Under the pieces are notes generated by a model. That model was not told where the DNA came from and made no database searches. It saw only the letters and a list, made by a program, of their open reading frames with translations. Shown here piece by piece: positions 13,544 to 63,974 of a stretch of DNA of 64,000 bases; position 1 is the first letter of the stretch, and each line of letters starts with the position of its first letter. Source of the stretch: a virus. The stretch is taken from IMG/VR virus record IMGVR_UViG_3300032287_000955, positions 7,676 to 71,675 of that record. The stretch is one strand, 5' to 3'. The position numbers and the translations under genes were made by a program.

Positions 13544-16500
13544 TACCTGCTGGCACCGCAGTTCCAGCTACCTTATAGATATTAATAGCTAATACGTCTG
13601 GACCATTCGGAAATGCTCCTCGACCACCAATAGCCGTGGTCGTTAACTCTTTCAACTGTGCTAGATTAATAGATGTTGTTGAGCCCGGGTTACTAATAAA
13701 CGAAAATACCTGTTCTCCAGGAAGTGCAAATTGCACGTCACCAAACTGGAATGTAACCGTACCTGCAGCACTCAGTGTAGCGTTAGATGTTTGAGTGAAT
13801 GTAACACGTCTAACAGTTGTTGCTCCTAGTGTTCTTGAACTTACACCTGCAACAGATGTACCAGCTGGAAATTGTGTAAACGAACTTGATACCCTGGTTC
13901 CTGTTGTTGCTGTTGAGGCATTCCAAGAAGCATTAGTGAAGAACAAGAAGTTAGTGGCTGCGTATGCTGCCGCTGTACCTGAAGCTGTTACCGTGGTAGA
14001 CACTGTGTTAGCAACACCTGCAGTACTGGTTCCGTTGGCTGCTGCACTTAATACAATCCTTGTATATAGTACGCCGGCTACCCTAGCAAAACTTGTGGTA
14101 ATCAAGCTAACTGTTTGATTCCCAGTTAAGAATGATGCTACTTGACAAGTATCACCTGCTAGTATTCCCGAAGTTGCAAAGTCAGTATCAAGCATCAAGA
14201 AATCTGTTCTTGCTGTGCTGATTGCGCTAGCATACTGTGTTGAAATACTTGATGTAACAGTAACAACAACACTTGCTCCTGTTGTTGTAGGACTACTAAG
14301 GGTAGCACCAGTATTCATAACTATGCGTGTGTAAATCGTACCTAGATAAGCTCTGGTAATACTAGTAATCTGTTGTCCGCCAGTTAGGTAAGTAGTTGCC
14401 GATAGTATATCACCAACACGCAATGGCGTAGTTGTTAGCAGTGCATCAAATGCTGTGTTAGTGATCAAGAAATCTGTTCTACCTGTGCTGAGGGCTGAAA
14501 GATAAGTGGTATTTCCTGCTGTTGGGCCTGATGGAGAGAAGTTCAACGCTGTAATAGTATTTGTTACAGTATTAAAAGCTCTGGCCACAGCAGTAGTAGT
14601 CAATGCTCCTTGAATAATAGCTGTGGAAGTTGTTAATGGAACACCACCCCAGTTAATCGCACCACCTAATGCAACCTGTGCAAAACTTGGTTGTCCACCA
14701 GCACCAGCACTTGATAATCCACTCCATGTAATTCTAGTAGGATCGCTTGGATAATTTCTTGGATTTAAAATACCTTCAACAACCAGTGCGCCTGTACCTG
14801 TGTCAGCAGTTACAGAAATTTCATTTAGTAACAATTGCGCTCTATTTAACAAGTCACGCTCGCCTAAATCACCAACCAGCGCATTAGACACACTCGGTGC
14901 TAGTCGAATCATAAATGCAGTTTGTTTATCAATACTTGCGCTTAAACCTGTGGCTGCATAGTTAAAGATGTAGCCGCGATCTTCATCAAATTGTCCGTCA
15001 GTTAATATCGCAGAACCCCAGTGGTTGATAGTTGGTGTAATTGTACAACTTATCAATGCGACTCCGGCGCCTGCTTCATGTGATGCTGCCGTGCCCGCAG
15101 TATATGTTCTATTTTGTCCTGATGAGAAATTACTTAAATTAGCTGATCGAGATAGACCGATTAGCCTATTCCCAGATTTTCCTGAGTAGAAAATCAATTC
15201 ATTATCAACATAGATAGTTCCCGAACTAGGGAATTTTGATGTATCTGTTAGGTATAAAGAAGCTGAAGTTGATGTGATACTTGCTGACAATTTGTCTAGT
15301 GCCGACCTATTTTCAACTTCATAACGCACTGGCAAGTTAGCAGTACGCATATAAGCTTCGTAGTTAATATTGCTGTTACGAATTCTATGTAAGAATACAA
15401 ATTTACCGTCTGCGCCCCTAATCATAAATTCAATAAAACCAGCAGCATACCAAGAATATTGTATACCGATCATCTGCATACGCTGTGGAATAAGATTGTA
15501 ACCACTAGGACCAGTTCCGTCAGCTTTGTCTATATTCCATTCGCTTTGTGGAATAACTAGTTCTTTCACTAAACAAACTTTTACACCAACTACGTTATTA
15601 ACTCCGCGCCAGTCTGGTGTAACTGTCATTGAGGTGTCGCTGGAGATACTAGTCACAGTATGAGTCATACCTCGGATAACAATTTTGTCATGAACTTTGA
15701 GTTGATTAGTAAATCTCGTTCCGGTACCCGAAATTAAATTACTTTCAGTATTGATAGCCACCTGTCCAGCTAGCTGGAATGTAGAACTGCGTCGTACTAC
15801 TGACATTTCCCGTCCATCAAACTGATAGAAAATTCCGTTTTGATCGTCAAATGCGCCTACTCGAACTGACGATCCGTGCCAAGATTTAACTGAAAGTAAA
15901 CAACGAGGACCAATATCGGCATTCAATGTCGATAATGGTACTAATGCACGTACTCTAAATGATCTCGATGATATAATACTTTCAACAGTATAGGTTCCAT
16001 TATATTCAAAAGAATTAAAACCAGTTACTTCGATAACTCCGCCCGGTTGTAAACCGTGATCTGTATCGTCTGTGCTCATAGTGATATAACTGTTTACAGC
16101 ATATCCAGCAGCCACAGCACTTGCTAGATTATAATTTGGTGCAAAGAGAGCACCTGTTGTATACATAATACCTTTACCAGATTGGTAACGAATGTATTTT
16201 TTACTTTGACGTATGGCCTGTGCACCGTGTTGTGGTCCACCTGTGCCCAACTGTACACCGCCATCAAATGGTCTATGAACAAAGAAACTATCAGGACGAG
16301 CATATAGTACACCGGTGATCGCTGCTGTTGTGTTAATAACGCCAGTGGTTCTAGCAGGGAATCTAATTGTAGTTGGGGTTGGAACTTGAGTAATAACAAA
16401 AGGTCCAGATGCTAAATTATGATTAGCAGAAGTTAAGTTTACTGAAAGCGCATTGCTGCCTGTGCCTACCACAGCAAATATTCCAACACCAGAATAGCTA

Positions 16501-47084: not shown

Positions 47085-47498
47085 TTAAGATACTGAAGTG
47101 ATTGCTGTTAGTTGGATATAGTCGCTAGTTGAATCATTGACTAAGAACCAAGTGTAACGATTGCCGCTGAAATCTGTAGCAACACGTTTAGTTAACTTAG
47201 CAATTGGTGTTGGTGCTGCTGCGTTACCACCAATATAGCCGTTAATTCTCATTTGACCGTTTGCGCTAGGGATAGCAGACTGAAGTACACAAGTTGCTAG
47301 TGTAGCTGCTTGATTTGCCACAACATAGGTTTTTGCTCCTCTTTGTTTGTAGATGTAAGCATAGTTTGTTGAGCTGTTATAGGTTGCATCGGTATATGCT
47401 GTGCTGCTGAAATACGCTTCTACACGAACACCTGTAGCACTAGATGGTGTACCAATAACATCAGTACCTAGTACATCTTTCTTTAATGGACGTCCCAT
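47085..47498 (-). CDS. Hypothetical structural protein
   Basis: 137 aa; strong AAGGAG; TAAATA box upstream at 47585-47590. Confidence 0.65.
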   Translation of the reverse strand: MGRPLKKDVLGTDVIGTPSSATGVRVEAYFSSTAYTDATYNSSTNYAYIYKQRGAKTYVVANQAATLATCVLQSAIPSANGQMRINGYIGGNAAAPTPIAKLTKRVATDFSGNRYTWFLVNDSTSDYIQLTAITSVS

Positions 47499-47587
47499 TT
47501 GTTTTCTCCTTAAATTGACGTTTTAGGTCTACGCAGAGGGATTCTGCATAAGTCTTGTTTTCACAAGTTCTCATTTAGACAATGTAT

Positions 47588-47857
47588 TTATCTTTGACTC
47601 AGCAATGCCATGAGCTCAATTTTTTCTACTGTTAGGATAAGGTTATTAATATCAGCTAATTCTTGTTGGGCTTGTTCTAAGTACCGTCTTTGCTTAGTTT
47701 GCCTATAGTGTACACCTGCTATGCTATAATTTTGAATGTGATTTTCGCAGATATTTTCAATTCGATTTACATCATGTTTGAACATAGGGAATCTCTTACG
47801 CCAAACATTAAACTGTTTTCGTAACTCGGAAAAATCTTTTTCACTTTGCACTTCCAT
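47588..47857 (-). CDS. Hypothetical helical protein (start set to MEVQSE)
   Basis: ATG at 47857 lies 5 nt after TAAATA; the track's start falls inside the terminator. Confidence 0.55.
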   Translation of the reverse strand: MEVQSEKDFSELRKQFNVWRKRFPMFKHDVNRIENICENHIQNYSIAGVHYRQTKQRRYLEQAQQELADINNLILTVEKIELMALLSQR

Positions 47858-47876
47858 ATCGGTATTTAAGTCAAAC

Positions 47877-47900
47877 AAAAAGGCTCCGAAGAGCCTTTTT
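47877..47900 (-). terminator. Intrinsic terminator after the major capsid gene
   Basis: AAAAGGCTC-TTCG-GAGCCTTTT (UUCG tetraloop). Confidence 0.85.
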
Positions 47901-47925
47901 GACTTTGCGTTAGTATTACTACTAA

Positions 47926-54383: not shown

Positions 54384-57068
54384 TTAAACACCGGCATATA
54401 AATCGCCGCTTAATTGTCCAAGTTTGCTTACTTGAACAGCACCTATATCGTGGTGATCTTTACTGATTTTAATTAATTGATCCATCTTAGTATTTAAGCT
54501 AGCCAACAAAGTTGCGGGTGAATCTTGAGTAGCCGGGGCTGGGGTACTTCCGGAACCTGAGCTGCCACTACCGCCGCCTGCTGCGGCTCTTTCGGCTGCG
54601 GCTCGCTCTTCTTGTTTTTTGGTTTCTGCTTCGGATACTATCGATCTTCTTGTTGTGTCTGCACCAGCCGTTGCTGTGCTTGGAGGATTTTGAATTAAGG
54701 CACTATTTTGTTGGGCTGCAAATCCAGTTAGTAATGCAGCAGGATCGTCGTAGTTTAATGCAACTTGTTTGTTTCTAGCATCTTCTTCTTTTTTGTTAGC
54801 TGACTCTAAGCCCGCACCGTGTTTCTGTGATTGTTGAATTTTCTTTAAATCAAGATTGGCTTTAACTTCGTCTCTCTTCTTTTCTTTAGCAATATCTTCT
54901 TCTTCCGCTTTGGCTCGATTCTCAGCCATCCTTTCAGACATTTTTGTAACCAGTTCTTCTCGTCTTTGAGCATTTTCCTCAATTTCTGTTTCAGTTTCTT
55001 TTATCTTATCTGTCATATCTACACCTGGTAGATAATCTAAAACCTTTAAAAATCCTAGTTTTAAATGACTTAAGAATGATTTAAATCCTTCCCACATAAA
55101 CCTTAAACCATCTTTGACTACTTCTACATCTCCGCCAAACTTTTTAAATATTAACCATAATGCTGTTACACCTGCAACGAGTGCAATTACCGGCCACGTT
55201 GCTGCTAACACCGCGCCAGCCATGGCGATCAATCCACCAATGAGAGGTAATTGTGCTGCGGCCTGTGCAATATTCATAGCAGTCTGAGCCCAACCAATAA
55301 CTGTACTAGCAACAACCCATGCACCCCATGCACCAAATACAACTCCTAATCCAATAAGGATAGGCGTTAAATTATCTGCAATAAATCCTGCCACGGCTTT
55401 AATAGGTGGTAGTAAAAACTCAGCAATGGATTCAAATACTGGATATAAATTTTGTATAGCTGTTTGAATTCCAGGAAGAAGGTCAACAATAAAAAATGCT
55501 GCTAAGTCTTGGAAAGCTGGATATAGTGTAGTTACTAAAAAGTTTCCGATGCCTTCCATTGCAGGGCCAAACGCTGTCGACAGTGATGTCCATAATGCAC
55601 TAATTACTCCAGTTACTAAAGTAAATGCAGGTACCAAATACTGCATTGTGAAATTAGCAGCCGCTTCAAATGCCGACATCAGCGTGTTTAACAATCCACT
55701 ATTGGCCAACACCATTTGGAAACTGTTACTAACCGCAGCAATATTTTGTTTTGCTTTTTCCATTGCCGCGGCTTGTGTTTTGGCTGCTTTCTCTTGTTCT
55801 GTTAATACTTTTTCTTTGCCATCGATATCACGTTTAGCTAATTCAGCCATACCAATATAAGCATTACCCATCTGCCCTGCATTAAACTGTGCTTGCGAAA
55901 CCATTTCACTAGACTTAGCCGCTACTTTTGCTTCCCTAACACCATTTTTATAAATTTGATCATAACTGTCTTGCGAAACTTTAACTCCGCTGCGCACCGC
56001 TGCACCTTGAGCAAGAATACTCTGTGCTAATCCCGGCATCGAATTGTTTAACATTATGCCAGCTTCACTAGTAATGTTACCAGTAGCAATCATTTCTTTA
56101 ACAGCTTCTTGTTGTTCTTTAGGAAAGCTGCTAACGAAATTGTTCATCATCTTTGCTTGATCGGCGTCAAGGTTAGCAATGGCCGCACGGAACTGAGAAT
56201 CTTTTAATCTTGCAGCCTGTTCGTCTTCAAGAGCTTTTCTACTTTGCCCAGTAATTTTTGCCAGTCCATCTAATTCTTTTAGGTATTGGCCAGCACCTTG
56301 TGCTAATTCTTTTGTAGATTTATTTTGTAAAGCTCCGCTGGCTCCATAGGTTTTGATATAATTTGCCATGCCTTCGTTAACCTGTTCAGTGGTGTAACCA
56401 AGACCGTATAATTGTTCTCCTATCTTGCTACCTCGAATGTCTTTAGACATAGCAGAGAATCTTTTTGCACCTTCCTCAGTTGTTCCGCCTAGGGTCATTA
56501 AGGCTTCGCCGTTTCTAGCAATCAGCCCACCAAACTTGTCCATTGTCATACCTGCTGCAGATGCTGAAGCAGCAAAATTATTCATACTGCCGCCAAAGGT
56601 AGCTCCCGATGCTGTAGCTGATTGATATGATCCGAGTGTTTTATCAGCAGCGGCAGCAACTGCTGCAAACATGCCGCCTATTACTGGAATACTGGAAAAT
56701 ACAGATGCTGCGCCGCTGAAAGAATCTCCTGCATTAGCAAATGCATTAATTAAACTTGTTGTTTGCGCTCCAAGGGCAAAGAAAGCCCCTGTGGCCATTT
56801 GCACAGGACGGATGATAGCTCCGACTGTTTTACCAAGCAACGCTGCTGAAGATGCACCACCACCATCTTTGCCACCGCCACCACCGCCACCACCGCCACC
56901 GGCATTTTCTTTATTTTTAGCATCACCTGGCTTGCCGCCCTTTTTATATCCACCACCCTCGCCACCTTGAATAGCCTTTAGGATTTCTTTCAGCGTGGAT
57001 TCAGTTGCTGCATTGTTAGCAACTACACTTCCGATACCCGGAATATCGATTGTTACTGGATTGGCCAT
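54384..57068 (-). CDS. Tape-measure-like protein
   Basis: 894 aa, Ala/Gly-rich and helical, with hydrophobic membrane-like segments; adjacent to gp26/gp51. Confidence 0.65.
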   Translation of the reverse strand: MANPVTIDIPGIGSVVANNAATESTLKEILKAIQGGEGGGYKKGGKPGDAKNKENAGGGGGGGGGGKDGGGASSAALLGKTVGAIIRPVQMATGAFFALGAQTTSLINAFANAGDSFSGAASVFSSIPVIGGMFAAVAAAADKTLGSYQSATASGATFGGSMNNFAASASAAGMTMDKFGGLIARNGEALMTLGGTTEEGAKRFSAMSKDIRGSKIGEQLYGLGYTTEQVNEGMANYIKTYGASGALQNKSTKELAQGAGQYLKELDGLAKITGQSRKALEDEQAARLKDSQFRAAIANLDADQAKMMNNFVSSFPKEQQEAVKEMIATGNITSEAGIMLNNSMPGLAQSILAQGAAVRSGVKVSQDSYDQIYKNGVREAKVAAKSSEMVSQAQFNAGQMGNAYIGMAELAKRDIDGKEKVLTEQEKAAKTQAAAMEKAKQNIAAVSNSFQMVLANSGLLNTLMSAFEAAANFTMQYLVPAFTLVTGVISALWTSLSTAFGPAMEGIGNFLVTTLYPAFQDLAAFFIVDLLPGIQTAIQNLYPVFESIAEFLLPPIKAVAGFIADNLTPILIGLGVVFGAWGAWVVASTVIGWAQTAMNIAQAAAQLPLIGGLIAMAGAVLAATWPVIALVAGVTALWLIFKKFGGDVEVVKDGLRFMWEGFKSFLSHLKLGFLKVLDYLPGVDMTDKIKETETEIEENAQRREELVTKMSERMAENRAKAEEEDIAKEKKRDEVKANLDLKKIQQSQKHGAGLESANKKEEDARNKQVALNYDDPAALLTGFAAQQNSALIQNPPSTATAGADTTRRSIVSEAETKKQEERAAAERAAAGGGSGSSGSGSTPAPATQDSPATLLASLNTKMDQLIKISKDHHDIGAVQVSKLGQLSGDLYAGV

Positions 57069-58214: not shown

Positions 58215-58606
58215 TATTTTTTACTGAGATTTAATAAAATCTGTTTTTGATTTTTGTCTAGCGGCTGCTGTTTTGATGCCGCTGTTAATGCGTCTGCTTC
58301 TGCAGAACCCTGTTGATATTTTGATGATAGTTGTTGTAATCTAACTAGATCGTCTCTATACAATTCACTACCCGATGCTGCGTTAACCAATGATGCTTTA
58401 AAAAGATGTGGCGATGTCTTTTTTACCGGTGCTTGTTGTGATTGCTCTGGTTTGTCTTTTTCAATATTTTTATCTTTAAACCATTGTCCCGGCGAAAACA
58501 ATTTGTTTACAGCATTAGCACCTTTTGATACATTGTTAACACTCAACTGTGTTACATCGCCTACGTCTTTAGGCAAATCTTCTGAAATAACTTCTTTAAT
58601 TTTCAT
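58211..58606 (-). CDS. Hypothetical protein, possible internal head protein
   Basis: N-terminus MKIKEVISE; TAATG-coupled to the upstream gene. Confidence 0.55.
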   Translation of the reverse strand: MKIKEVISEDLPKDVGDVTQLSVNNVSKGANAVNKLFSPGQWFKDKNIEKDKPEQSQQAPVKKTSPHLFKASLVNAASGSELYRDDLVRLQQLSSKYQQGSAEADALTAASKQQPLDKNQKQILLNLSKKY

Positions 58607-60021
58607 TAGTGTTTTCTAAAAATACTGATTTTGCCTTCAGCAACCATTCTGCGTTTTTCTTCTGCAATGGCTCTCATTAAAGTTTCTGCAAGGGCATTGC
58701 CTGTTCTAATTTTACTGTCAGAGAAGTTACCCATATTTCGTTCACGATCAGCATCCATTGTTGCTTGACTAGGTGCTGCTGGTTTCTTCTTACCACCTTT
58801 TTTCTTAACAGGTTCAACATCATTGCCTTGATCGTCCATGCCTGCCTGTGCCATCATGCCTGCTAATTTAGGATTTTTAGCTTTCATTGCATCTAACGCT
58901 GCTTGTTCTGGATTACCACCTGCATCAGCTGCCTGTGTTGCAGCTTGTCCAGTGGTTGGTGCTGCTGGTGCTGGTGCTGGTGCTTTATCTTGTTGTGCTG
59001 GTGCTGCTTTAGTTTGTTTTGCAGCAGCTTGCTTATCCTGTTCAGCTTTCCATGCTGGTGTCATTTCGCCTGTAACACCATCGAATTTTGCACCTTTACC
59101 GGTAGCTGGATCATAATGTGGTTGACCGTCTGCAGTCATGCCTGGTTCCGGTGCTGCATTAGGATTACCAGGTTTGGCTTTATTTGTTTTGCTCACAGGA
59201 GCATTAGCCATTGTGTTTGGTTCTGCTGCGCCACCTGCTGGTGCTGCTCCTGTTGCCGCTGGATCTGCTGCTGCCGGTGATGCTCTTGCTGCCGCTCTCT
59301 TTGCTGCCGCTGCCGCTGGATCTGCTGCCGATTTAGGTTGGGGTGCTGCCATTGATTTTGTTAACAACTGCATGATACGTTGCTTGCCTTTTTTATCAAG
59401 TTGATTAACTTGACTTTTAACTTGAGCGTATAATGTTTGACCTGCTTTTTCTGCACCTACACCTGCTGTTGCATCTGCAGTTTTTTTCATAGCAGCCGCT
59501 GCTGCACCTGTCTGTGGCTTTGCTGGTGCTGTACCTTTTGGACCTTGTGCATTAGCATCGGCAGCATTATCTGCCGGCGCTGGCGCTGTTCCGCCTGCCG
59601 CTGCTCCACCGTTACCTGTTGGTGTTGGTTTACCCGCAAGTCCTGCTTTTAGACCTGCTATGAATCCTGGCTTCTTGCCTGTTGTTGCAGGATCTGCCGT
59701 GTTAGTTCCTGTAGGATCTCCTGTAGGCTGTGGTGCTGTTGTTCCACCTGCGGGAGCTGCTTTAGCTCTTGTTCTTTTTTGTGGATCGATTACTGCGTCG
59801 GGAGAATCGCCACCTTGAGCCACTCTGTCTTTACCTGCTTGGAACCCTTTCTTAATTGCAGATCCTGCACCAGCAATACCACCTGCTACTGCACCTACTC
59901 CTTTAGCAGCCATACCGGCAATGTCGCCTACAGCTTTTCCAAACTTATTAAACTTAGGCCCTTCATATAGATCTTGTAATTGTTGTTGTTCGGATTCAGT
60001 TAATATTTGATTAATTCTCAT
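58606..60021 (-). CDS. Ala/Pro/Gly/Lys-rich disordered protein, possible internal head protein
   Basis: 471 aa, low complexity; N-terminus MRINQILTE. Confidence 0.6.
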   Translation of the reverse strand: MRINQILTESEQQQLQDLYEGPKFNKFGKAVGDIAGMAAKGVGAVAGGIAGAGSAIKKGFQAGKDRVAQGGDSPDAVIDPQKRTRAKAAPAGGTTAPQPTGDPTGTNTADPATTGKKPGFIAGLKAGLAGKPTPTGNGGAAAGGTAPAPADNAADANAQGPKGTAPAKPQTGAAAAAMKKTADATAGVGAEKAGQTLYAQVKSQVNQLDKKGKQRIMQLLTKSMAAPQPKSAADPAAAAAKRAAARASPAAADPAATGAAPAGGAAEPNTMANAPVSKTNKAKPGNPNAAPEPGMTADGQPHYDPATGKGAKFDGVTGEMTPAWKAEQDKQAAAKQTKAAPAQQDKAPAPAPAAPTTGQAATQAADAGGNPEQAALDAMKAKNPKLAGMMAQAGMDDQGNDVEPVKKKGGKKKPAAPSQATMDADRERNMGNFSDSKIRTGNALAETLMRAIAEEKRRMVAEGKISIFRKH

Positions 60022-60059
60022 GACAAGGGATTCCTAAAAGGTATAATTTTATTTATTAA

Positions 60060-60525
60060 AAACGAGCTACGCTCGTTTGCTTTTTCGCTTTCGCTCAAAG
60101 CATTTTTTCTTTTTCAGATATTGTTAAAGTTATTGAACTTATGATAATTGCGAAGCAATTTAAGTATTATGCAGATTGTTCAGTCACACTTTGCCCAGAC
60201 CGGGCAAAGATAAGAGCATTATGCGAGTTGCACAGTACACTCTAGCGTTACAGCATTACCAAGGCGGTCATCCGGTACCTTTAGCTGCGTCTTTATATGA
60301 CGGCGGTTTGTAAACATACGCTAACATATCTACAAACGTGGGGCTTATTTCCCCTCTTTTTGCCTTATTGTTCTTTTCAAATAACCAAATCGCAGGGCTT
60401 ACAAGCGATCGTCATCCTTTCGGGTAGTGGTTAAGCACCTTTGCGGCAAGGTTTTCCATCCCTGTGTACACGAAGACCAGGTTTAGAGCGCACGAAATTA
60501 CAGCCTGCGCCAGCCAAAAAACCGC
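60060..60525 (-). ncRNA. Candidate structured non-coding RNA (or structured origin element)
   Basis: ORF-free ~500-nt gap with about ten stems, G-U-compatible on the minus strand, with GNRA/GNA loops; family not recognised. Confidence 0.5.
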
Positions 60526-60526
60526 T

Positions 60527-60961
60527 TTATTTTGCCTTATTTTGTTCTAAAAGACGTTGCCTAAGTATGTTTGAGCCGCCAACTCTGACGTTTATAATGC
60601 CATTATAATAGTCATCTGTTTCTAAAACTCTGCGTTCAAACTGCTCTCGTGCCTCTAGATATGACAGTTCTGCCTTGGATTTGCAAAGGTAAAGTATTTC
60701 TCTTGTGAAGTTTTCCGGACCTAATGCTTGGACGTCTGCGTTTAACCTATCAGATGAACCCCAATATTCGCGCCAATCGCTTTCTACTGTGCTTCTTCTT
60801 TTAAGTTTTTTGCCTTTGAGTGGTGGTTTAGTACGCTTGAATTGTGCTAGTTTCTTGCCTATGTACTTCTGTCCGGTTGTTTTATTCGTGATGATATAAA
60901 CAAAGCCAATGTAGCCTTCTGGTATTTCGTTTACGGGTTGATTTTGATACGTCCATTGCAC
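60527..60961 (-). CDS. Minimal GIY-YIG (Seg-like) nuclease-domain protein
   Basis: GFVYIITNKTTGQKYIGKK, YWGSS, GPENFTREIL, LE, YYN. Confidence 0.8.
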   Translation of the reverse strand: MQWTYQNQPVNEIPEGYIGFVYIITNKTTGQKYIGKKLAQFKRTKPPLKGKKLKRRSTVESDWREYWGSSDRLNADVQALGPENFTREILYLCKSKAELSYLEAREQFERRVLETDDYYNGIINVRVGGSNILRQRLLEQNKAK

Positions 60962-61192
60962 TCACTTAGTTATTTTCGGTGGCCTTCCCAGCTTGCCTTT
61001 TCTGGCTAGCTTACGTTCTTCTCGTTTTTCCTGTATCTCTATTCGCCTTGTTGATGCTTCATTGCGTATTTCTGATAGCCAATATCGTGCCTTAATGCCT
61101 GCCTCGTCTGAGCCTTTGTATTCAAATCGTTCTTGCCACTTAAAATATTCCTGAAAAGCAGCAATCATTTTATCGTGGCTGTCTGAGCTCAA
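60962..61192 (-). CDS. Small basic Hc1-like (histone H1-like) DNA-binding protein
   Basis: KG..EAG.KAR..L.EI......RR.EIQ motif and a basic tail. Confidence 0.55.
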   Translation of the reverse strand: MSSDSHDKMIAAFQEYFKWQERFEYKGSDEAGIKARYWLSEIRNEASTRRIEIQEKREERKLARKGKLGRPPKITK

Positions 61193-62967
61193 GCAACAAT
61201 CTCCACATCGTTACTGTAGCTGGTAAATCCATTTTCTTTAATAACCTTCAGCACATGATTAACACGACTAGTCAAGTCATCTCTGTGCGAAATCAAGAAC
61301 ACATTCTTGTTGCGTTCACGAGTCATCTTCTTAAGCACAGCGATACTAGATTCAACACCGCTGGCATCCATACCTGAATCAACTAATTCATCAATAAACA
61401 ACAGATTGATCGGATGATATAGATTTTCCCATACATCACGGAACGCCCATGACAATGAAAGTATCAGTCTATTACGCTCACCTCGGCTTAGATTGTCAAA
61501 GTCCAAGTCCTGTCCTAGTTGTGTAATGATTACACTTAGGTCGTTTTGGAATTCAACGATATGCGGCAAGCCAATCCTATCGAGATAATAGGTCAATCGT
61601 TGATTTAAGAACGCTAGATTTTGATCAATGATGCGTTTACGCACAAATGAGTCTTTGTTAGTCAACAGTTTATATAAGAATTCCTGATGTTCTTTAACTC
61701 TTACTAGATCGTTTACTGCATTCCAATCAATTTCCTGCACGGCTGTCTTCTTGAGTTCTTCAATCTGTTCTAGATAAGGATTAGTCTCTGCTTCTTTGAG
61801 CATTAGATCCTTTTCAAAGCTTTCAATAGTGTTTTTATGATTAAGTGCTTGCTCCAGTGTATCATAAAATACCTTAGGTATAGCACCTAGTTCACCGATT
61901 TCTTTAACTGCTTCAGTTAATTCGATTCGTTGTGCATTTGTAGCTTCTGCTTGTGACGCAGATTCTTGTAGAGCTTTCTTTTTAGCTTCTAAAACTTCTT
62001 CATGTTTGCTGTCATGCAGTTCTTGACCACAGGCATAGCATTTGTGATCCTCTAGATCTGCAATTTCTTTCTTTAGTTTTTCAATCTGCTTCTCTTCACG
62101 TGCAGTATCTGCTTCTGCACGAACTATTAACTTGTTTAAATCTGCCAAATCTTTTTGTTTTGTGTTGTAGTCTGCTAACGCTCTGTGATTAGCAATCTCA
62201 ACAGCAGAATCAATGTGGCTTAGATGATCAATATTTTTTAGAATATTCTCGATATTCTTTTCTTTGGTATCGTCCCACATCTTTTGTTTGCGTTCTAGTG
62301 CTTCAATACTCTGTTGTATGCGTTCGTTGCTGGCTTTGATAGTTTCGATACGAGTATTTTCTGTTTGAATATTGTCTTTGCTCAGTCTAATCTGTTCTTT
62401 AAGTGCTTCGGCCTTTTCACTCAGCAGAGTAATACCCAACAGTTGTTCAATGATACTGCGTTGCTCGCCAGCTTTCATTGCTAGGAATGGTTCTGTATAG
62501 GTATTCAGTGCCACAAGATGCTTAAACATATCGTGACTCATAGAAATCATTTCTTCAATGGCTTTTTGTGTTTCTCTAGAATCACCTTGTGATTCATCTA
62601 GATCGTCTAGATCCTGTTCTTGTCCGTTTATGCTGAACTTCAGTAGATTAGGTTTGCGTCCACGTTCGATATGATATTCAATACCATCCTTTTCGAAAGT
62701 CACTGTGCATAACATGCCCTTGCCGTTGATTTTATTAATAAGGTTATCACGTTTGATGTTGGTTAGAGCTTGTCCGTAGATAGCATAACTGAGTCCATTA
62801 ATGATAGTGGTCTTACCTGTGCCATTACGAGCACCACTGTCGTCGCCACCTAGGTCTAGATTTTCACCTAAAACTAAAGTAAGCTGTCCTTTGTCAAAGT
62901 CTATGGCTTGGGTTTGATTGCCCACGCTCATGAAATTTCTAACAGTTAGGTTTTTTATTTTAATCAT
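61189..62967 (-). CDS. gp46: Recombination ATPase subunit (Rad50/SbcC-like)
   Basis: Walker A NGTGKT, coiled coil with CYAC Zn-hook, LSRGE signature, LLFIDE Walker B, ISH. Confidence 0.95.
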   Translation of the reverse strand: MIKIKNLTVRNFMSVGNQTQAIDFDKGQLTLVLGENLDLGGDDSGARNGTGKTTIINGLSYAIYGQALTNIKRDNLINKINGKGMLCTVTFEKDGIEYHIERGRKPNLLKFSINGQEQDLDDLDESQGDSRETQKAIEEMISMSHDMFKHLVALNTYTEPFLAMKAGEQRSIIEQLLGITLLSEKAEALKEQIRLSKDNIQTENTRIETIKASNERIQQSIEALERKQKMWDDTKEKNIENILKNIDHLSHIDSAVEIANHRALADYNTKQKDLADLNKLIVRAEADTAREEKQIEKLKKEIADLEDHKCYACGQELHDSKHEEVLEAKKKALQESASQAEATNAQRIELTEAVKEIGELGAIPKVFYDTLEQALNHKNTIESFEKDLMLKEAETNPYLEQIEELKKTAVQEIDWNAVNDLVRVKEHQEFLYKLLTNKDSFVRKRIIDQNLAFLNQRLTYYLDRIGLPHIVEFQNDLSVIITQLGQDLDFDNLSRGERNRLILSLSWAFRDVWENLYHPINLLFIDELVDSGMDASGVESSIAVLKKMTRERNKNVFLISHRDDLTSRVNHVLKVIKENGFTSYSNDVEIVA

Positions 62968-63974
62968 AGGTCTTTATAGATGTCCAATAGGAGATTCTTG
63001 TCATAGGCATCGCTTTCGATAGCATTGATTTGGTTCATGACAATGGTGTCAACGCTTTCAAAGTTGATGTCTATGGGTGTTGTGTTAGAGTCAACTTCTA
63101 CTTTTTCCGGAATAAGCATTAATTCACGCAGATTATACTGCGGCATAAACGTTTCGCGGATAAAGTTTGCCTCTTCAAAGCTAATAGGCAAGTCAATGGT
63201 TACACGACAATGCATTTTTTCACGCAGTAACTTGTCTGGAGTGTCGATAATTTGACTGAGCTTGTAAGATCTATAAACAGGTTGATCTGGCCAAGTGTGA
63301 TATTCTGGTTTGCTGCCCCATTCAAGTATCATCATGCCACGATCGTCATCACCACTGTCTGCATAGTTGTGTGGAAATGCATTACCAATGTAAGTTACAT
63401 TGCCCTTGCTTTGGCGTTTGTGGAAATGACCGCTAAACACATACTCTTGATTGTGAAAGTGATCTGCTTGTAACTGTCCATGATCGGGCATTTGTACCAT
63501 GGCGTTCATGTAGAACAATGGTAATTCTAAATGTCCAAACAGGTACTTGCTTTTAATCTTTGGAATATTTTTCCATTCATCGCCAACTAGCCAAGGCATG
63601 ATAGTAACGCCGCCTTCTGTGAGTGTTTCTTTGATAGGAACTACGTTTGGAAACAGGCGCATAAACTCAACAGAGTTGATTTCACGCTTGTCTTTATAGA
63701 ACAAATCGTGATTGCCCAATATAAAATAGACTTTTTCAAATGATTGACTTAACCGTTCTAGATTAGACACAGTATAGTTCATAGTTGAAACATCTGTAGT
63801 TGAACGATTGTGATGCCAATCGCCCAAGAAAATTGCTGTTTCGCAATTTTCCCGCTTCGCGGTTTCGCAAAACCAAGTCACGAAATCTTCGCAATCTTGA
63901 TTATGCGTTCTGCTACCAGACTTTAGTCCAAAATGTATATCGGTAAAACAAGCAACTTTTTTGAATAGGTTCAT
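62964..63974 (-). CDS. gp47: Recombination nuclease subunit (Mre11/SbcD-like)
   Basis: DIHFG, LGDWHH, GNHD, GHLE, SGHFH metallophosphoesterase motifs. Confidence 0.95.
   Translation of the reverse strand: MNLFKKVACFTDIHFGLKSGSRTHNQDCEDFVTWFCETAKRENCETAIFLGDWHHNRSTTDVSTMNYTVSNLERLSQSFEKVYFILGNHDLFYKDKREINSVEFMRLFPNVVPIKETLTEGGVTIMPWLVGDEWKNIPKIKSKYLFGHLELPLFYMNAMVQMPDHGQLQADHFHNQEYVFSGHFHKRQSKGNVTYIGNAFPHNYADSGDDDRGMMILEWGSKPEYHTWPDQPVYRSYKLSQIIDTPDKLLREKMHCRVTIDLPISFEEANFIRETFMPQYNLRELMLIPEKVEVDSNTTPIDINFESVDTIVMNQINAIESDAYDKNLLLDIYKDL

What the first reader, a model, noticed from the sequence alone, without database searches (positions are those of the whole stretch)
60060..60961. Minimal GIY-YIG protein followed by a ~450-nt structured non-coding element: candidate nuclease-ncRNA system
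Seen: 60022-60526 is by far the longest ORF-free gap in the window and starts at the GIY-YIG stop codon. On the minus strand it is a dense run of stems: GCGCA..TGCGC; CCTG..CAGG; ACCTT..AAGGT; TAACCA..TGGTTA (60382-60433) enclosing CC-GAAA-GG and GATCGC..GCGATT; GGGG..CCCC (60340-60354); GTTTGTAGATA..TATGTTTACAAAC with G-U pairs (60306-60337); CGTC..GACG; CAGC[AAGG..CCTT]GCTG; CTTTGCCC-GGTCT-GGGCAAAG (60189-60209). The motif CAAyyyGCATAATrCT occurs twice. Known: free-standing Seg/I-TevI-type homing enzymes carry C-terminal DNA-binding domains. This 144-aa protein has none, only a basic insertion (KRTKPPLKGKKLKRR). Inference: a co-transcribed RNA could be the scaffold, guide or substrate of this nuclease, analogous in layout to TnpB/omegaRNA. 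Alternatives are an independent phage ncRNA or an RNA-primed origin.
Basis: partly seen in the sequence, partly recalled or inferred. Interest (0 to 1): 0.85.

Follow-up and report, generated by a model that had tools for sequence, protein, structure and literature searches.

The report
Large structured phage RNA after GIY-YIG gene
The long gene-free stretch after a small nuclease gene in this freshwater T4-like phage encodes a roughly 460-base folded RNA of unknown function, whose first third is a catalogued RNA motif and which also occurs, without the nuclease, in bacterial genomic islands.

Summary

The 5' 137 nt (60379-60515, minus strand) are a full-length match to Rfam RF01718, the Polynucleobacter-1 RNA (100.8 bits against a cut-off of 37). 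The RNA continues about 320 nt further. The extension has helices with compensatory changes, a pseudoknot, two identical heptamers that change together between lineages, a conserved tail and a terminator-like hairpin ending at about 60060.

In this phage clade the GIY-YIG gene lies directly upstream in 110 of 113 loci. One locus carries a PD-(D/E)XK nuclease there instead. The two parts are nevertheless separable:
- The short GIY-YIG family occurs in 754 phage records, and none of the 5 inspected has the RNA.
- The RNA occurs without GIY-YIG in betaproteobacterial islands, between a DUF6641 gene and a short tyrosine recombinase.
- Natural deletion variants exist.

My best reading is an autonomous large non-coding RNA of mobile elements, co-transcribed here with the nuclease and probably acting through its twin heptamers. 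A guide or scaffold role for DNA enzymes that lack a DNA-binding domain is not excluded (about 0.15).

The parts
60527..60961 (-). GIY-YIG nuclease-domain protein, 144 aa, GTG start
   Evidence: Pfam PF19835, 1.7e-36, whole domain. phrog_447, 1.5e-40. AlphaFold model with pLDDT 86.4. Best PDB fold match is the I-TevI catalytic domain (prob 0.94, E 0.22). Y22, Y33, G35, E103 and N120 are invariant and R87 nearly so in 21 homologues.
60379..60515 (-). 5' domain of the RNA, a full-length Polynucleobacter-1 motif (Rfam RF01718)
   Evidence: cmscan 100.8 bits against a gathering score of 37, model positions 1-141 of 141. Helices covary.
60355..60378 (-). A-rich linker between the 5' domain and the extension
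   Evidence: Conserved AGGCAA-AAAGA block in alignment A1.
60340..60354 (-). Hairpin P7 (GGGG / CCCC)
   Evidence: 4 of 4 pairs changed on both sides, 84.2% of cells paired.
60306..60337 (-). Long hairpin P8. Its loop (60318-60323) is the 5' strand of a pseudoknot.
   Evidence: 12 of 12 pairs changed on both sides, 91.7% paired.
60243..60248 (-). 3' strand of the pseudoknot, pairing with the P8 loop at 60318-60323
   Evidence: 6 of 6 pairs changed on both sides, 93.9% paired. The same loop-to-downstream pairing, with different letters, can be read in the 5 bacterial copies.
60288..60302 (-). Hairpin P9 (CGTC / GACG)
   Evidence: 89.6% of cells paired, with no change on both sides, so support is weak.
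60251..60287 (-). Helices P10 (CAGC/GCTG) and P11 (AAGG/CCTT) around an invariant GGTACCGG..ACCGCC core. Some relatives carry an extra hairpin here.
   Evidence: P10: 3 of 4 pairs compensatory, 97.5% paired. P11: 60 of 60 sequences paired at 4 pairs, 2 of them compensatory. Variable-length insertion at A1 columns 310-348.
60218..60224 (-). Heptamer copy 1, inside repeat unit A (60213-60242)
   Evidence: Identical to copy 2 in 86 of the 87 phage sequences in which both were captured, with 11 variants. Mutual information with copy 2 equals the column entropy at three of the four variable positions and is close to it at the fourth.
60189..60209 (-). Hairpin P13 between the two repeat units
   Evidence: 6 of 8 pairs compensatory, 93.0% paired.
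60166..60172 (-). Heptamer copy 2, inside repeat unit B (60161-60190)
60148..60158 (-). Hairpin P14
   Evidence: 4 of 4 pairs compensatory, 93.1% paired where letters are present.
60097..60147 (-). Variable A/T-rich linker
   Evidence: Conservation falls to 0.14-0.58 here and gaps are many.
60060..60096 (-). Conserved tail (GAGCGAAAGCGAAA, 60083-60096) and terminator-like hairpin (60060-60078) followed by a U run. This is the presumed 3' end of the RNA.
   Evidence: A sequence profile built from 92 bacterial-type copies has its one significant hit in the window at 60057-60115 on the minus strand, E 5.1e-06. By a strict test, 33 of 74 distinct phage copies have a hairpin plus T run ending near +440, and the stems covary.
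60050..60057 (-). AATAAATA, resembling the T4 late promoter TATAAATA (consensus recalled), ahead of the next gene
   Evidence: 28 of the 33 terminator-like hairpins are followed within 40 nt by [AT]ATAAATA.
58606..60021 (-). Downstream gene: 471-aa Ala/Pro/Gly-rich protein with no family match
   Evidence: Fast-diverging relatives start at +443 to +479 in many loci.
60962..63974 (-). Upstream genes of the same strand: orf76 (60962-61192), a gp46/SbcC-like gene (61189-62967) and a gp47/SbcD-like gene (62964-63974)
   Evidence: phrog_77 at 2.2e-104 and phrog_100 at 1e-62. Synteny in related contigs.

Best explanation
The gap encodes one large structured non-coding RNA of about 460 nt (window 60515 down to about 60056, minus strand). 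This is a full-length form of the family that Rfam knows only as the 141-position Polynucleobacter-1 motif.

In this large freshwater T4-like phage it is transcribed as the last part of the gp47-gp46-(orf76)-GIY-YIG unit and ends at an intrinsic-terminator-like hairpin. The next gene has its own late-type promoter.

The RNA is a gene of mobile elements in its own right. Homologous copies with their own upstream region sit in betaproteobacterial genomic islands between a DUF6641 gene and a short tyrosine recombinase.

Its architecture is:
- a compact 5' domain;
- a long hairpin whose loop forms a pseudoknot with a downstream strand;
- two similar modules that each display the same heptamer;
- a conserved tail.

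Inferred, not shown: it works in trans, and the twin heptamers are its specificity element, reading one lineage-specific partner twice (two sites, or two molecules of one nucleic acid). Its adjacency to GIY-YIG reflects co-expression in one operon, not an obligate complex.
For: It is an RNA, on the minus strand:
- RF01718 scores 100.8 bits over the full model.
- The 60 representatives that I kept after grouping at 95% identity the 96 of 120 sequences (119 loci and the window) that reach +470 keep 72-88% column conservation from position 1 to about 350. Meanwhile GIY-YIG falls to 48% and gp46 to 53% amino-acid identity.
- Covariation statistics for the extension and the whole RNA exceed every control.
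- Many G-U pairs fix the strand: A1 pair 118:141 is G-U in 60 of 60 sequences, 120:139 is U-G in 20, 219:235 is G-U in 18.
- It is not coding.

It is a unit with defined ends: the conserved tail, the hairpin with a T run and the following late-promoter-like motif.

Transcription: 20 runs labelled RNA hold part of the stretch. In the 4 freshwater metatranscriptome runs that I laid, contigs cross the GIY-YIG stop codon into the RNA (X1 60373-60593 and 60475-60648, X2 60302-60565, X3 60247-60560, X4 60503-60702).

It is autonomous:
- 5 of 17 pattern hits in bacterial genomes are true RF01718 matches (88-104 bits), and none has GIY-YIG or gp46 nearby.
- These copies are conserved from about 55 nt before the motif to about 490 nt after it.
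- In 119 metagenome contigs of the bacterial type, GIY-YIG is present in 0 of 119. DUF6641 lies divergently upstream in 70 of 75 testable contigs, a short recombinase lies downstream in 39 of 61, and the 5' domain is present in 90 of 93.
- A profile of the bacterial 3' region finds the window's tail at E 5.1e-06, and finds 56 of 96 phage copies at E below 0.01.
- GIY-YIG occurs without the RNA in ACP17, Mendera, P-SSM2 and Syn9, where the next genes abut, and in Melnitz.

Twin heptamers:
- Identical in 86 of 87 phage copies, with 11 variants (96 sequences examined, 9 not captured by my pattern).
- In 115 bacterial-type pairs, 94 are identical over 7 letters and 12 more over the first 6, with 13 variants.
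- Mutual information between the copies is 0.87-1.03 bits at the four variable positions. It equals the column entropy at three of them and is 1.03 against 1.13 bits at the fourth. At three positions every other column scores well below this; at the fourth the next columns reach 0.77-0.84.
Against: - Adjacency to a nuclease gene is far tighter than ordinary synteny. GIY-YIG is directly upstream in 110 of 113 loci while the gp46-to-GIY distance varies from 0 to 3300 nt. The single replacement is another small nuclease, PDDEXK_15 at 1.1e-25.
- No separate promoter for the RNA was found in the phage.
- The expression evidence is assembled contigs only. They show no amount, strand or ends, and DNA carried over into RNA libraries cannot be excluded.
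- No partner for the heptamers was found. There is no conserved complementary site within 1.5-2 kb in phage loci or in bacterial contigs.
- The 5' and 3' domains can occur apart (L162, L166, L280, L334), so they could be two functional units.
- The sequences compared are related, so counts of sequences overstate the number of independent events.
Confidence: 0.55

Rival explanations
1. The RNA is the specificity or scaffold subunit of DNA enzymes that have only a catalytic domain. These would be GIY-YIG (or the PD-(D/E)XK nuclease) in phages and the short tyrosine recombinase in bacterial islands. The twin heptamers would read a short core in two DNA sites or on two strands.
For: - The layout matches the TnpB-type arrangement: the RNA starts 11 nt after the nuclease stop codon.
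- Adjacency holds in 110 of 113 loci despite rearrangements on the other side.
- A different nuclease occupies the same slot in L074.
- In bacteria a 188-204-aa protein follows on the same strand, in 4 of 4 genome loci with enough DNA and in 39 of 61 metagenome contigs. In the two copies scanned it is essentially only a Phage_integrase catalytic domain.
- The two heptamers change together, as a programmable element would.
- Precedent: the orphan motif RAGATH-18 proved to be the guide RNA of upstream TnpB genes (PMC11061315; I saw only the start of the abstract in the listing).
Against: - The short GIY-YIG family is in 754 phage records, and all 5 inspected lack the RNA.
- L156 has the gene without the RNA and L162 lacks the 5' domain.
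- 22 of 61 bacterial-type contigs show no recombinase within 2.5 kb.
- Seven nucleotides, with only about 4 variable positions, is too little for targeting. No long hypervariable segment exists.
- No complementary site was found nearby.
- Short tyrosine recombinases that work without RNA exist (FimB/FimE, recalled).
Confidence: 0.15
2. Selfish nuclease parked beside its target. GIY-YIG (and the PD-(D/E)XK gene in L074) would be free-standing homing-type endonucleases that persist next to a highly conserved RNA gene because they cut that gene's DNA in genomes lacking the nuclease.
For: - The RNA gene is the most conserved DNA in the neighbourhood.
- Two unrelated nuclease families occupy the same slot.
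- GIY-YIG hits homing-endonuclease families: phrog_7363 and phrog_314 and PADLOC HEase models.
- Free-standing homing enzymes of T4 sit beside conserved targets, including the tRNA region (recalled).
Against: - The gene is nearly universal in the clade (110 of 113 loci), not sporadic.
- It lacks any DNA-binding domain.
- The same short family is a stable gene of many cyanophages in other contexts.
- No nuclease-free allele with an intact RNA was seen among the 113 loci.
Confidence: 0.1
3. Cis-regulatory leader of the downstream gene, as the original description classed the motif (candidate cis-regulatory).
For: - Table 1 of Weinberg 2010 marks Polynucleobacter-1 as a likely RNA and likely cis-regulatory (PMC2864571; I saw the table row only).
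- In many phage loci the next ORF starts at a near-constant +443 to +479 and shares an N-terminal motif.
Against: - A conserved hairpin with a T run and a late-promoter-like motif separate the RNA from that gene.
- 1.5-1.7 kb insertions lie between them in other loci (p471 homologue at +1922 to +2209).
- Bacterial copies have different downstream genes at +789 to +1489.
- An element of about 460 nt with a pseudoknot and its own tail is far larger than usual leaders.
- Rfam 15 types the family as a gene (sRNA).
Confidence: 0.08
4. DNA-level element, such as a replication origin with iteron-like direct repeats or an RNA-primed origin. The twin heptamers would be binding sites for one protein.
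For: Direct repeats that change in parallel are what iterons do. A/T-rich stretches flank the repeats.
Against: - Compensatory base-pair changes, including G-U pairs that are strand-specific, and a pseudoknot point to selection on a folded RNA.
- The spacing between the repeats varies: 56-72 nt in the bacterial copies, and indels lie between them in the phage copies.
- The element is present in RNA-library contigs.
Confidence: 0.04

Closest known systems
Polynucleobacter-1 RNA motif (Rfam RF01718; Weinberg et al. 2010, PMC2864571)
   Same: Window 60379-60515 matches the whole 141-position model at 100.8 bits. The habitat also fits: fresh water and Burkholderiales in the paper's table, freshwater metatranscriptomes and Polynucleobacter/Aquabacterium-labelled contigs here.
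   Different: The catalogued motif is only the first third. Here and in the bacterial copies the conserved, covarying RNA runs on for a further 320-420 nt, with a pseudoknot, twin heptamers, a tail and a terminal hairpin. The main text of the only paper in the library that names the motif mentions it once, in a table row, so neither the genomic contexts found here nor the extension are described there.
Guide RNAs encoded 3' of small nucleases in mobile elements (TnpB omega RNA / RAGATH-18-derived RNA; IscB HEARO RNA)
   Same: A structured orphan RNA begins right after the stop codon of a small nuclease gene in a mobile genome. There is precedent for a Breaker-lab motif turning out to be a guide (PMC11061315, listing only).
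   Different: The nuclease here is GIY-YIG, not RuvC. The RNA and the nuclease occur independently. No long variable guide is present, only two 7-nt cores. Transposon ends were not looked for.
Large ornate non-coding RNAs of phages and prophages (GOLLD, ROOL)
   Same: Several hundred nucleotides long, many covarying helices, carried by phages or mobile DNA, function unknown. Weinberg 2017 notes the phage use of GOLLD and ROOL (PMC5737381, passages).
   Different: No Rfam hit other than RF01718 in the gap. No tRNA genes lie nearby in the 5 bacterial loci scanned. The twin co-varying heptamers have no counterpart that I know of in those classes (recalled).
I-TevI / Seg-type GIY-YIG homing endonucleases
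   Same: Same catalytic domain: Pfam SegE_GIY-YIG, and the best PDB fold match is the I-TevI catalytic domain. The conserved Tyr, Tyr, Arg, Glu and Asn are present (their roles are assigned from recalled I-TevI work).
   Different: No linker or DNA-binding domain: the protein is 144 aa, with only a C-terminal helix after the domain. It is nearly universal rather than sporadic in its clade. It belongs to a roughly 148-aa family that depositors label 'NAD synthetase'.
IS110-family bridge RNA (recalled, not tested)
   Same: One RNA with two displayed specificity elements that share a core, encoded next to a recombinase in a mobile element.
   Different: The enzymes differ: a tyrosine recombinase or GIY-YIG here, not a DEDD/Tnp recombinase. 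The heptamers here are identical rather than specifying two different DNAs. No base-pairing target was identified.

Membership tests
Rfam RF01718 Polynucleobacter-1 RNA | Covariance-model score at or above the curated gathering score (37 bits) | tested here: met
   100.8 bits, E 1.2e-20 for the whole window.
Rfam RF01718 Polynucleobacter-1 RNA | Full-length match to the model, with its helices kept by compensatory change | tested here: met
   Model positions 1-141 of 141. P1, P4 and P6 pair in 99.7-100% of cells and each has 4 pairs changed on both sides.
Rfam RF01718 Polynucleobacter-1 RNA | The family as curated is a 141-nt unit | tested here: not met
   Conservation and covariation continue about 320 nt further in phages and about 350 nt further in bacteria. 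The window is a member, but the model describes only part of the RNA.
GIY-YIG nuclease domain (Pfam PF19835 SegE_GIY-YIG) | Profile score above the curated cut-off over the whole domain | tested here: met
   125.6 bits against a cut-off of 25, residues 3-123 on profile 1-123.
GIY-YIG nuclease domain (Pfam PF19835 SegE_GIY-YIG) | Conserved catalytic residues (two Tyr of the GIY and YIG motifs, Arg, Glu, Asn; roles recalled from I-TevI) | tested here: met
   Y22, Y33, G35, E103 and N120 are invariant and R87 is conserved in at least 90% of 21 homologues at 50-94% identity.
GIY-YIG nuclease domain (Pfam PF19835 SegE_GIY-YIG) | GIY-YIG fold | tested here: inconclusive
   The model has pLDDT 86.4. 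The top PDB matches are the I-TevI catalytic domain (1mk0, 1ln0; prob 0.92-0.94, target-normalised TM 0.64-0.66), but no match reaches E 0.001 or better (best 0.22).
Seg / I-TevI-type free-standing homing endonuclease | C-terminal DNA-binding domain joined by a linker | tested here: not met
   144 aa with no second Pfam domain. Only one helix (residues 129-143) follows the catalytic domain.
Seg / I-TevI-type free-standing homing endonuclease | Sporadic presence among close relatives | tested here: not met
   Present directly upstream of the RNA in 110 of 113 loci.
RNA-guided nuclease with a 3'-encoded guide RNA (TnpB/IscB type) | Structured RNA encoded immediately 3' of the nuclease ORF | tested here: met
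   The RNA starts 11 nt after the stop codon.
RNA-guided nuclease with a 3'-encoded guide RNA (TnpB/IscB type) | Obligate co-occurrence of the nuclease family and the RNA family | tested here: not met
   GIY-YIG occurs without the RNA in 5 of 5 cultured phages inspected and in L156. The RNA occurs without GIY-YIG in 5 genome contigs and 119 metagenome contigs.
RNA-guided nuclease with a 3'-encoded guide RNA (TnpB/IscB type) | A variable guide segment long enough to specify a target (about 12-20 nt) | tested here: not met
   The only variation that follows a rule is in two 7-nt cores, each with about 4 variable positions.
RNA-guided nuclease with a 3'-encoded guide RNA (TnpB/IscB type) | Physical complex and RNA-dependent cleavage | not testable with these tools
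   Needs a pull-down and a cleavage assay.

The most novel reading that the evidence does not exclude
The extended Polynucleobacter-1 RNA is a portable specificity module for DNA enzymes that have only a catalytic domain. Its two identical, lineage-variable heptamers would read a short core sequence twice (two DNA sites or two strands). That would aim a GIY-YIG or PD-(D/E)XK nuclease in T4-like phages and a short tyrosine recombinase in bacterial islands. This would be a new kind of RNA-directed nuclease/recombinase system.
Probability: 0.12. Interest if true: 0.95.

Novelty: new variant of a known kind. Interest (0 to 1): 0.66.

Why it matters
- An Rfam motif with no known function since 2010 turns out to be the 5' third of a 460-560-nt RNA with a pseudoknot and a modular 3' half. 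That places it among the few large structured bacterial and phage RNAs whose jobs are unknown.
- It is abundant in fresh water.
- It is shared between lytic T4-like phages and genomic islands of their likely hosts.
- It carries two copies of a heptamer that almost always change together. This is a clean, testable handle on what the RNA recognises.
- It sits beside three different DNA-cutting or DNA-joining enzymes that lack DNA-binding domains. A functional link is therefore worth one direct experiment, even though gene distribution argues against an obligate partnership.

Tried and rejected
- Other Rfam families in the gap: only a sub-threshold snoRNA hit (18.7 bits against 35, E 0.49), taken as chance.
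- Single-sequence folding as evidence: z = -1.72 for the whole gap, so not used.
- My first P11 pairing (CGG/CCG register) pairs in 0% of cells. A second attempt was off by one column (44.6%).
- The long-range pairing of the 5' end with position 215-217 that RNAalifold proposed has no change on both sides, so I dropped it.
- A complementary partner for the heptamers:
  - An exact 6-7-nt reverse-complement search within -1.5 to +2 kb found no conserved position.
  - A search allowing wobble pairs finds only the conserved GUUGUUU at position 130. It cannot pair with the commonest variant and does not covary.
  - In bacterial contigs the apparent excess of extra copies is the constant tail motif, which coincides with one variant (24 of 26 AGCGAAA copies, almost none in other classes).
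- A T-box-like 'codon plus A' reading of the heptamer: rejected, because some bacterial variants place UGA at the codon position (variants).
- Coding potential: none.
- Melnitz phage: its 148-nt gap after the GIY-YIG homologue shows no RF01718 hit at the gathering score and no profile hit.
- The bacterial-type 3' pattern scanned in viral contigs gave 0 hits.
- DUF6641 and Phage_integrase are not found in the window's own contig, which is about 20% complete.
- PADLOC: no defence-system model fits DUF6641, the short recombinase or the L074 nuclease.
- PDB sequence search with GIY-YIG: no hit.
- Read laying: the runs are kept as contigs only, so no depth ranking, strand or ends can be told, and uncovered bins mean nothing.
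- Literature: 'DUF6641' returns 0 papers. 'freshwater-2' with 'RNA motif' returns 0. A search for RNA-guided tyrosine recombinases gave 3 unrelated papers.
- Supplementary files of Weinberg 2010 and 2017, which hold the motif descriptions, could not be read.
Full report
WHAT IS THERE

The window is part of a 71.7-kb viral contig estimated to be about 20% complete. Related contigs reach 210-282 kb.

On the minus strand lie, in order:
- a gp47/SbcD-like gene (62964-63974);
- a gp46/SbcC-like gene (61189-62967; phrog_77 at 2.2e-104 and phrog_100 at 1e-62);
- a 76-aa ORF;
- a 144-aa GIY-YIG protein (60527-60961; Pfam SegE_GIY-YIG at 1.7e-36 over the whole domain);
- a 505-nt ORF-free gap (60022-60526), the longest in the window (next longest 180 nt);
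- a 471-aa Ala/Pro/Gly-rich protein with no family match.

The nearest cultured relatives by DNA are the Methylophilales phages Melnitz, of the family Kyanoviridae.

THE GAP IS A KNOWN RNA MOTIF PLUS MUCH MORE

Rfam finds a full-length Polynucleobacter-1 RNA (RF01718) at 60379-60515 on the minus strand, at 100.8 bits against a gathering score of 37. Nothing else in the gap reaches significance.

Against these, the gap aligns far beyond the motif: between 85 and 119 of the 119 loci match at each position from 27 to 360 of the gap, at 67-97% identity.

Of those 119 loci and the window, 96 sequences reach +470. After grouping these at 95% identity, 60 representatives remain. Their column conservation stays at 0.72-0.88 from RNA position 1 to about 350. 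It drops in a variable linker and recovers in a tail at positions 401-460. The flanking proteins are much more diverged: GIY-YIG down to 48% and gp46 down to 53% amino-acid identity.

No frame is open (median longest stop-free run 33-54 codons in six frames of 73 distinct sequences), and variability has no 3-base period.

STRUCTURE

RNAalifold on the 60 sequences gave 58 pairs, 34 of them with compensatory changes.

In the extension alone, 87.7% of cells pair. Column shuffles give 73.7% (0 of 500 reach the observed value) and slid partners give 34-45%. The covariation score is 0.399 against 0.04-0.10. The whole RNA gives 89.2% paired and a score of 0.356.

Best supported helices:
- the long hairpin at 60306-60337: 12 of 12 pairs changed on both sides;
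- CAGC/GCTG: 3 of 4 pairs;
- AAGG/CCTT: 60 of 60 sequences paired at four pairs, two of them fully compensatory;
- the hairpin at 60189-60209: 6 of 8 pairs;
- a small hairpin at 60148-60158: 4 of 4 pairs.

A systematic scan of column pairs also showed a pseudoknot. The loop of the long hairpin (60318-60323) pairs with 60243-60248. All 6 pairs show changes on both sides, and 93.9% of cells pair.

Frequent G-U pairs fix the strand as minus.

The 5' domain contains a GAAA-capped stem and a CCUAAAC/GGAUGG internal loop that resembles the 11-nt tetraloop receptor. That resemblance is recalled, not tested.

TWIN HEPTAMERS

The 3' half contains two similar units, each a helix strand, then GUGUGAC-like, then AAYYC, then a heptamer.
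- The heptamers at 60218-60224 and 60166-60172 are identical in the window.
- They are identical in 86 of the 87 phage copies in which my pattern captured both (96 examined), with 11 variants.
- At the four variable positions, mutual information between the two copies is 0.87-1.03 bits. It equals the column entropy at three positions and is 1.03 against 1.13 bits at the fourth. At three positions every other column scores well below this; at the fourth the next columns reach 0.77-0.84.
- The bacterial-type copies behave the same way. Of 115 captured pairs, 94 are identical over 7 letters and 12 more over the first 6, with 13 variants.
- No complementary partner was found nearby.

This is parallel covariation, not base-pair covariation. 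It means both copies are held to the same, lineage-specific specification. What they read is unknown.

ENDS AND TRANSCRIPTION

The RNA starts 11 nt after the GIY-YIG stop codon. No sigma-70-like promoter was found on that strand.

At the 3' end a conserved GAGCGAAAGCGAAA motif (60083-60096) is followed by an 8-bp hairpin (60060-78) and a U run. By a strict test, 33 of 74 distinct copies have such a hairpin with a T run ending near +440, and the stems covary. In 28 of those 33 an [AT]ATAAATA motif follows within 40 nt. That motif resembles the T4 late promoter, a consensus I recall and did not test.

So the RNA looks like the 3' end of the gp47-gp46-GIY-YIG unit, and the next gene has its own promoter.

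Twenty runs labelled RNA hold part of the stretch. In the four freshwater metatranscriptome runs that I laid, assembled contigs cross from the GIY-YIG gene into the RNA. These are contigs only, so they show presence in RNA libraries but not level, strand or ends, and DNA carry-over is possible.

IS THE RNA TIED TO THE NUCLEASE?

Within the clade, very tightly.
- Of 113 RNA-bearing loci with at least 500 nt upstream, 110 have the GIY-YIG gene ending just before the RNA.
- Two have it about 200 nt further away.
- One (L074) has a PDDEXK_15 nuclease there instead (Pfam 1.1e-25).
- The gp46-to-GIY distance meanwhile varies from 0 to 3300 nt.

Approached from the protein side, I examined 80 close GIY-YIG relatives, of which 72 have enough downstream DNA.
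- 66 have the 5' domain directly downstream.
- 2 have a diverged 5' domain (L181, L199).
- 1 has a reduced 5' domain (L166).
- 1 has lost the 5' domain but keeps the 3' half (L162).
- 1 has an inserted ORF and only a remnant of the RNA (L160).
- 1 has no RNA within 3 kb (L156).

Outside the clade the link disappears.
- The short GIY-YIG family (phrog_447, often labelled 'NAD synthetase') is in 754 phage records.
- In Acidovorax phage ACP17, Stenotrophomonas phage Mendera, P-SSM2 and Syn9 the next gene abuts it.
- Melnitz, at 66% identity, has a 148-nt gap without the RNA.

THE SAME RNA IN BACTERIA

The motif pattern hit 17 bacterial genome contigs, and 5 are true RF01718 matches at 88-104 bits. 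They include a 747-kb contig labelled Polynucleobacter and one labelled Aquabacterium. None has GIY-YIG or gp46. Only 2 of 151 genomes sampled from that family carry the motif above cut-off.

These copies are also long. They are conserved from about 55 nt before the motif to about 490 nt after it. They have the same order of features, the same pseudoknot with different letters, twin heptamers and the same tail.

A profile of 92 bacterial-type 3' regions has its one significant hit in the window at 60057-60115 on the minus strand (E 5.1e-06; the next hit has E 1.8). It finds 56 of 96 phage copies at E below 0.01.

The bacterial context is conserved.
- A DUF6641 gene is divergent upstream, in 6 of 6 genome loci and in 70 of 75 testable metagenome contigs.
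- A 188-204-aa protein lies downstream on the same strand, in 4 of 4 genome loci with enough DNA and in 39 of 61 testable metagenome contigs. In the two copies scanned it is essentially only a Phage_integrase catalytic domain.
- The 5' domain is present in 90 of 93 testable contigs. Of the other three, two (L280, L334) keep only the 3' half and one (L309) is a chance hit.
- The island around the Polynucleobacter copy holds further recombinases, an AAA ATPase and a candidate defence gene.

READING

Shown:
- a roughly 460-nt structured RNA family;
- its 5' third is RF01718;
- it is carried by two kinds of mobile DNA;
- it is separable from GIY-YIG.

Inferred:
- it is made as the tail of the nuclease operon;
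- it acts in trans;
- the twin heptamers are its specificity element.

The guide/scaffold idea keeps some weight because three different catalytic-domain-only DNA enzymes sit next to this RNA. Against it stand the independent distribution, the natural deletions and the absence of a long guide.

A homing-nuclease-beside-its-target reading, a cis-regulatory leader and a DNA-level element are weaker rivals, for the reasons given under each.

THE PROTEIN

The AlphaFold model is confident (pLDDT 86.4). The lysine-rich insertion forms a lower-confidence beta-hairpin (pLDDT 64-65), and a single C-terminal helix follows the catalytic domain.

The best PDB fold matches are the I-TevI catalytic domain and a GIY-YIG-type 5hmC-specific restriction enzyme. 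All are at weak E-values, the best being 0.22. The catalytic Tyr, Tyr, Arg, Glu and Asn are conserved.

LIMITS

- The sequences are related, so counts are not independent events.
- The motif's original description is in supplements that I could not open.

Noticed in passing
window 47496-47568 (-), inside an ORF-poor stretch 47499-47925: A second catalogued orphan RNA, freshwater-2 (RF02980), at 57.5 bits against a cut-off of 49.9. It lies in the second-longest gap free of ORFs of 100 aa or more. A relative, L006, has it too (56.2 bits at 14865-14940), about 11 kb downstream of its Polynucleobacter-1 copy.
   Followed up: partly
L074 4127-4642 (+): In one related phage contig a 171-aa PDDEXK_15 nuclease (Pfam 1.1e-25; phrog_244, labelled RusA-like resolvase) takes the place of GIY-YIG. 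It ends 10 nt before the RNA.
   Followed up: partly
L216, L207, L225, L226 and metagenome loci L227-L345: There is a conserved bacterial module: a DUF6641 gene divergent from the RNA, then a 188-204-aa tyrosine recombinase with only the catalytic domain. It lies at the edge of a genomic island that also holds larger recombinases, an AAA ATPase and a PADLOC candidate defence gene, PDC-M33C / DUF6339.
   Followed up: partly
L162, L166, L181, L199, L160, L156 (downstream of GIY-YIG at about 3430): These loci are natural variants of the RNA: 5' domain deleted (L162), reduced to its first two helices (L166), replaced by a diverged version with a different internal-loop motif (L181, L199), interrupted by an inserted ORF (L160), or absent (L156).
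   Followed up: partly
window 58606-60021 (-) and relatives: The gene after the RNA is a fast-diverging Ala/Pro/Gly-rich protein with no family match. Its relatives share only an N-terminal M-[KR]-I-x-[EQ]-[IL]-L motif and a start at +443 to +479 from the RNA start.
   Followed up: partly
window 60050-60057 (-) and 28 related loci: An AATAAATA or TATAAATA motif lies directly after the RNA's terminal hairpin. It resembles the T4 late promoter consensus (recalled). It suggests a switch from an early/middle unit to a late gene at this point.
   Followed up: no
phage records H6-H64: The roughly 145-aa GIY-YIG family is annotated 'NAD synthetase' in many deposited phage genomes and in phrog_447. 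The Pfam match and the fold say it is a GIY-YIG nuclease domain.
   Followed up: partly
window 54384-57068 (-): The 894-aa ORF has a long glycine run and Ala-rich, probably membrane-spanning segments. I did not examine it.
   Followed up: no
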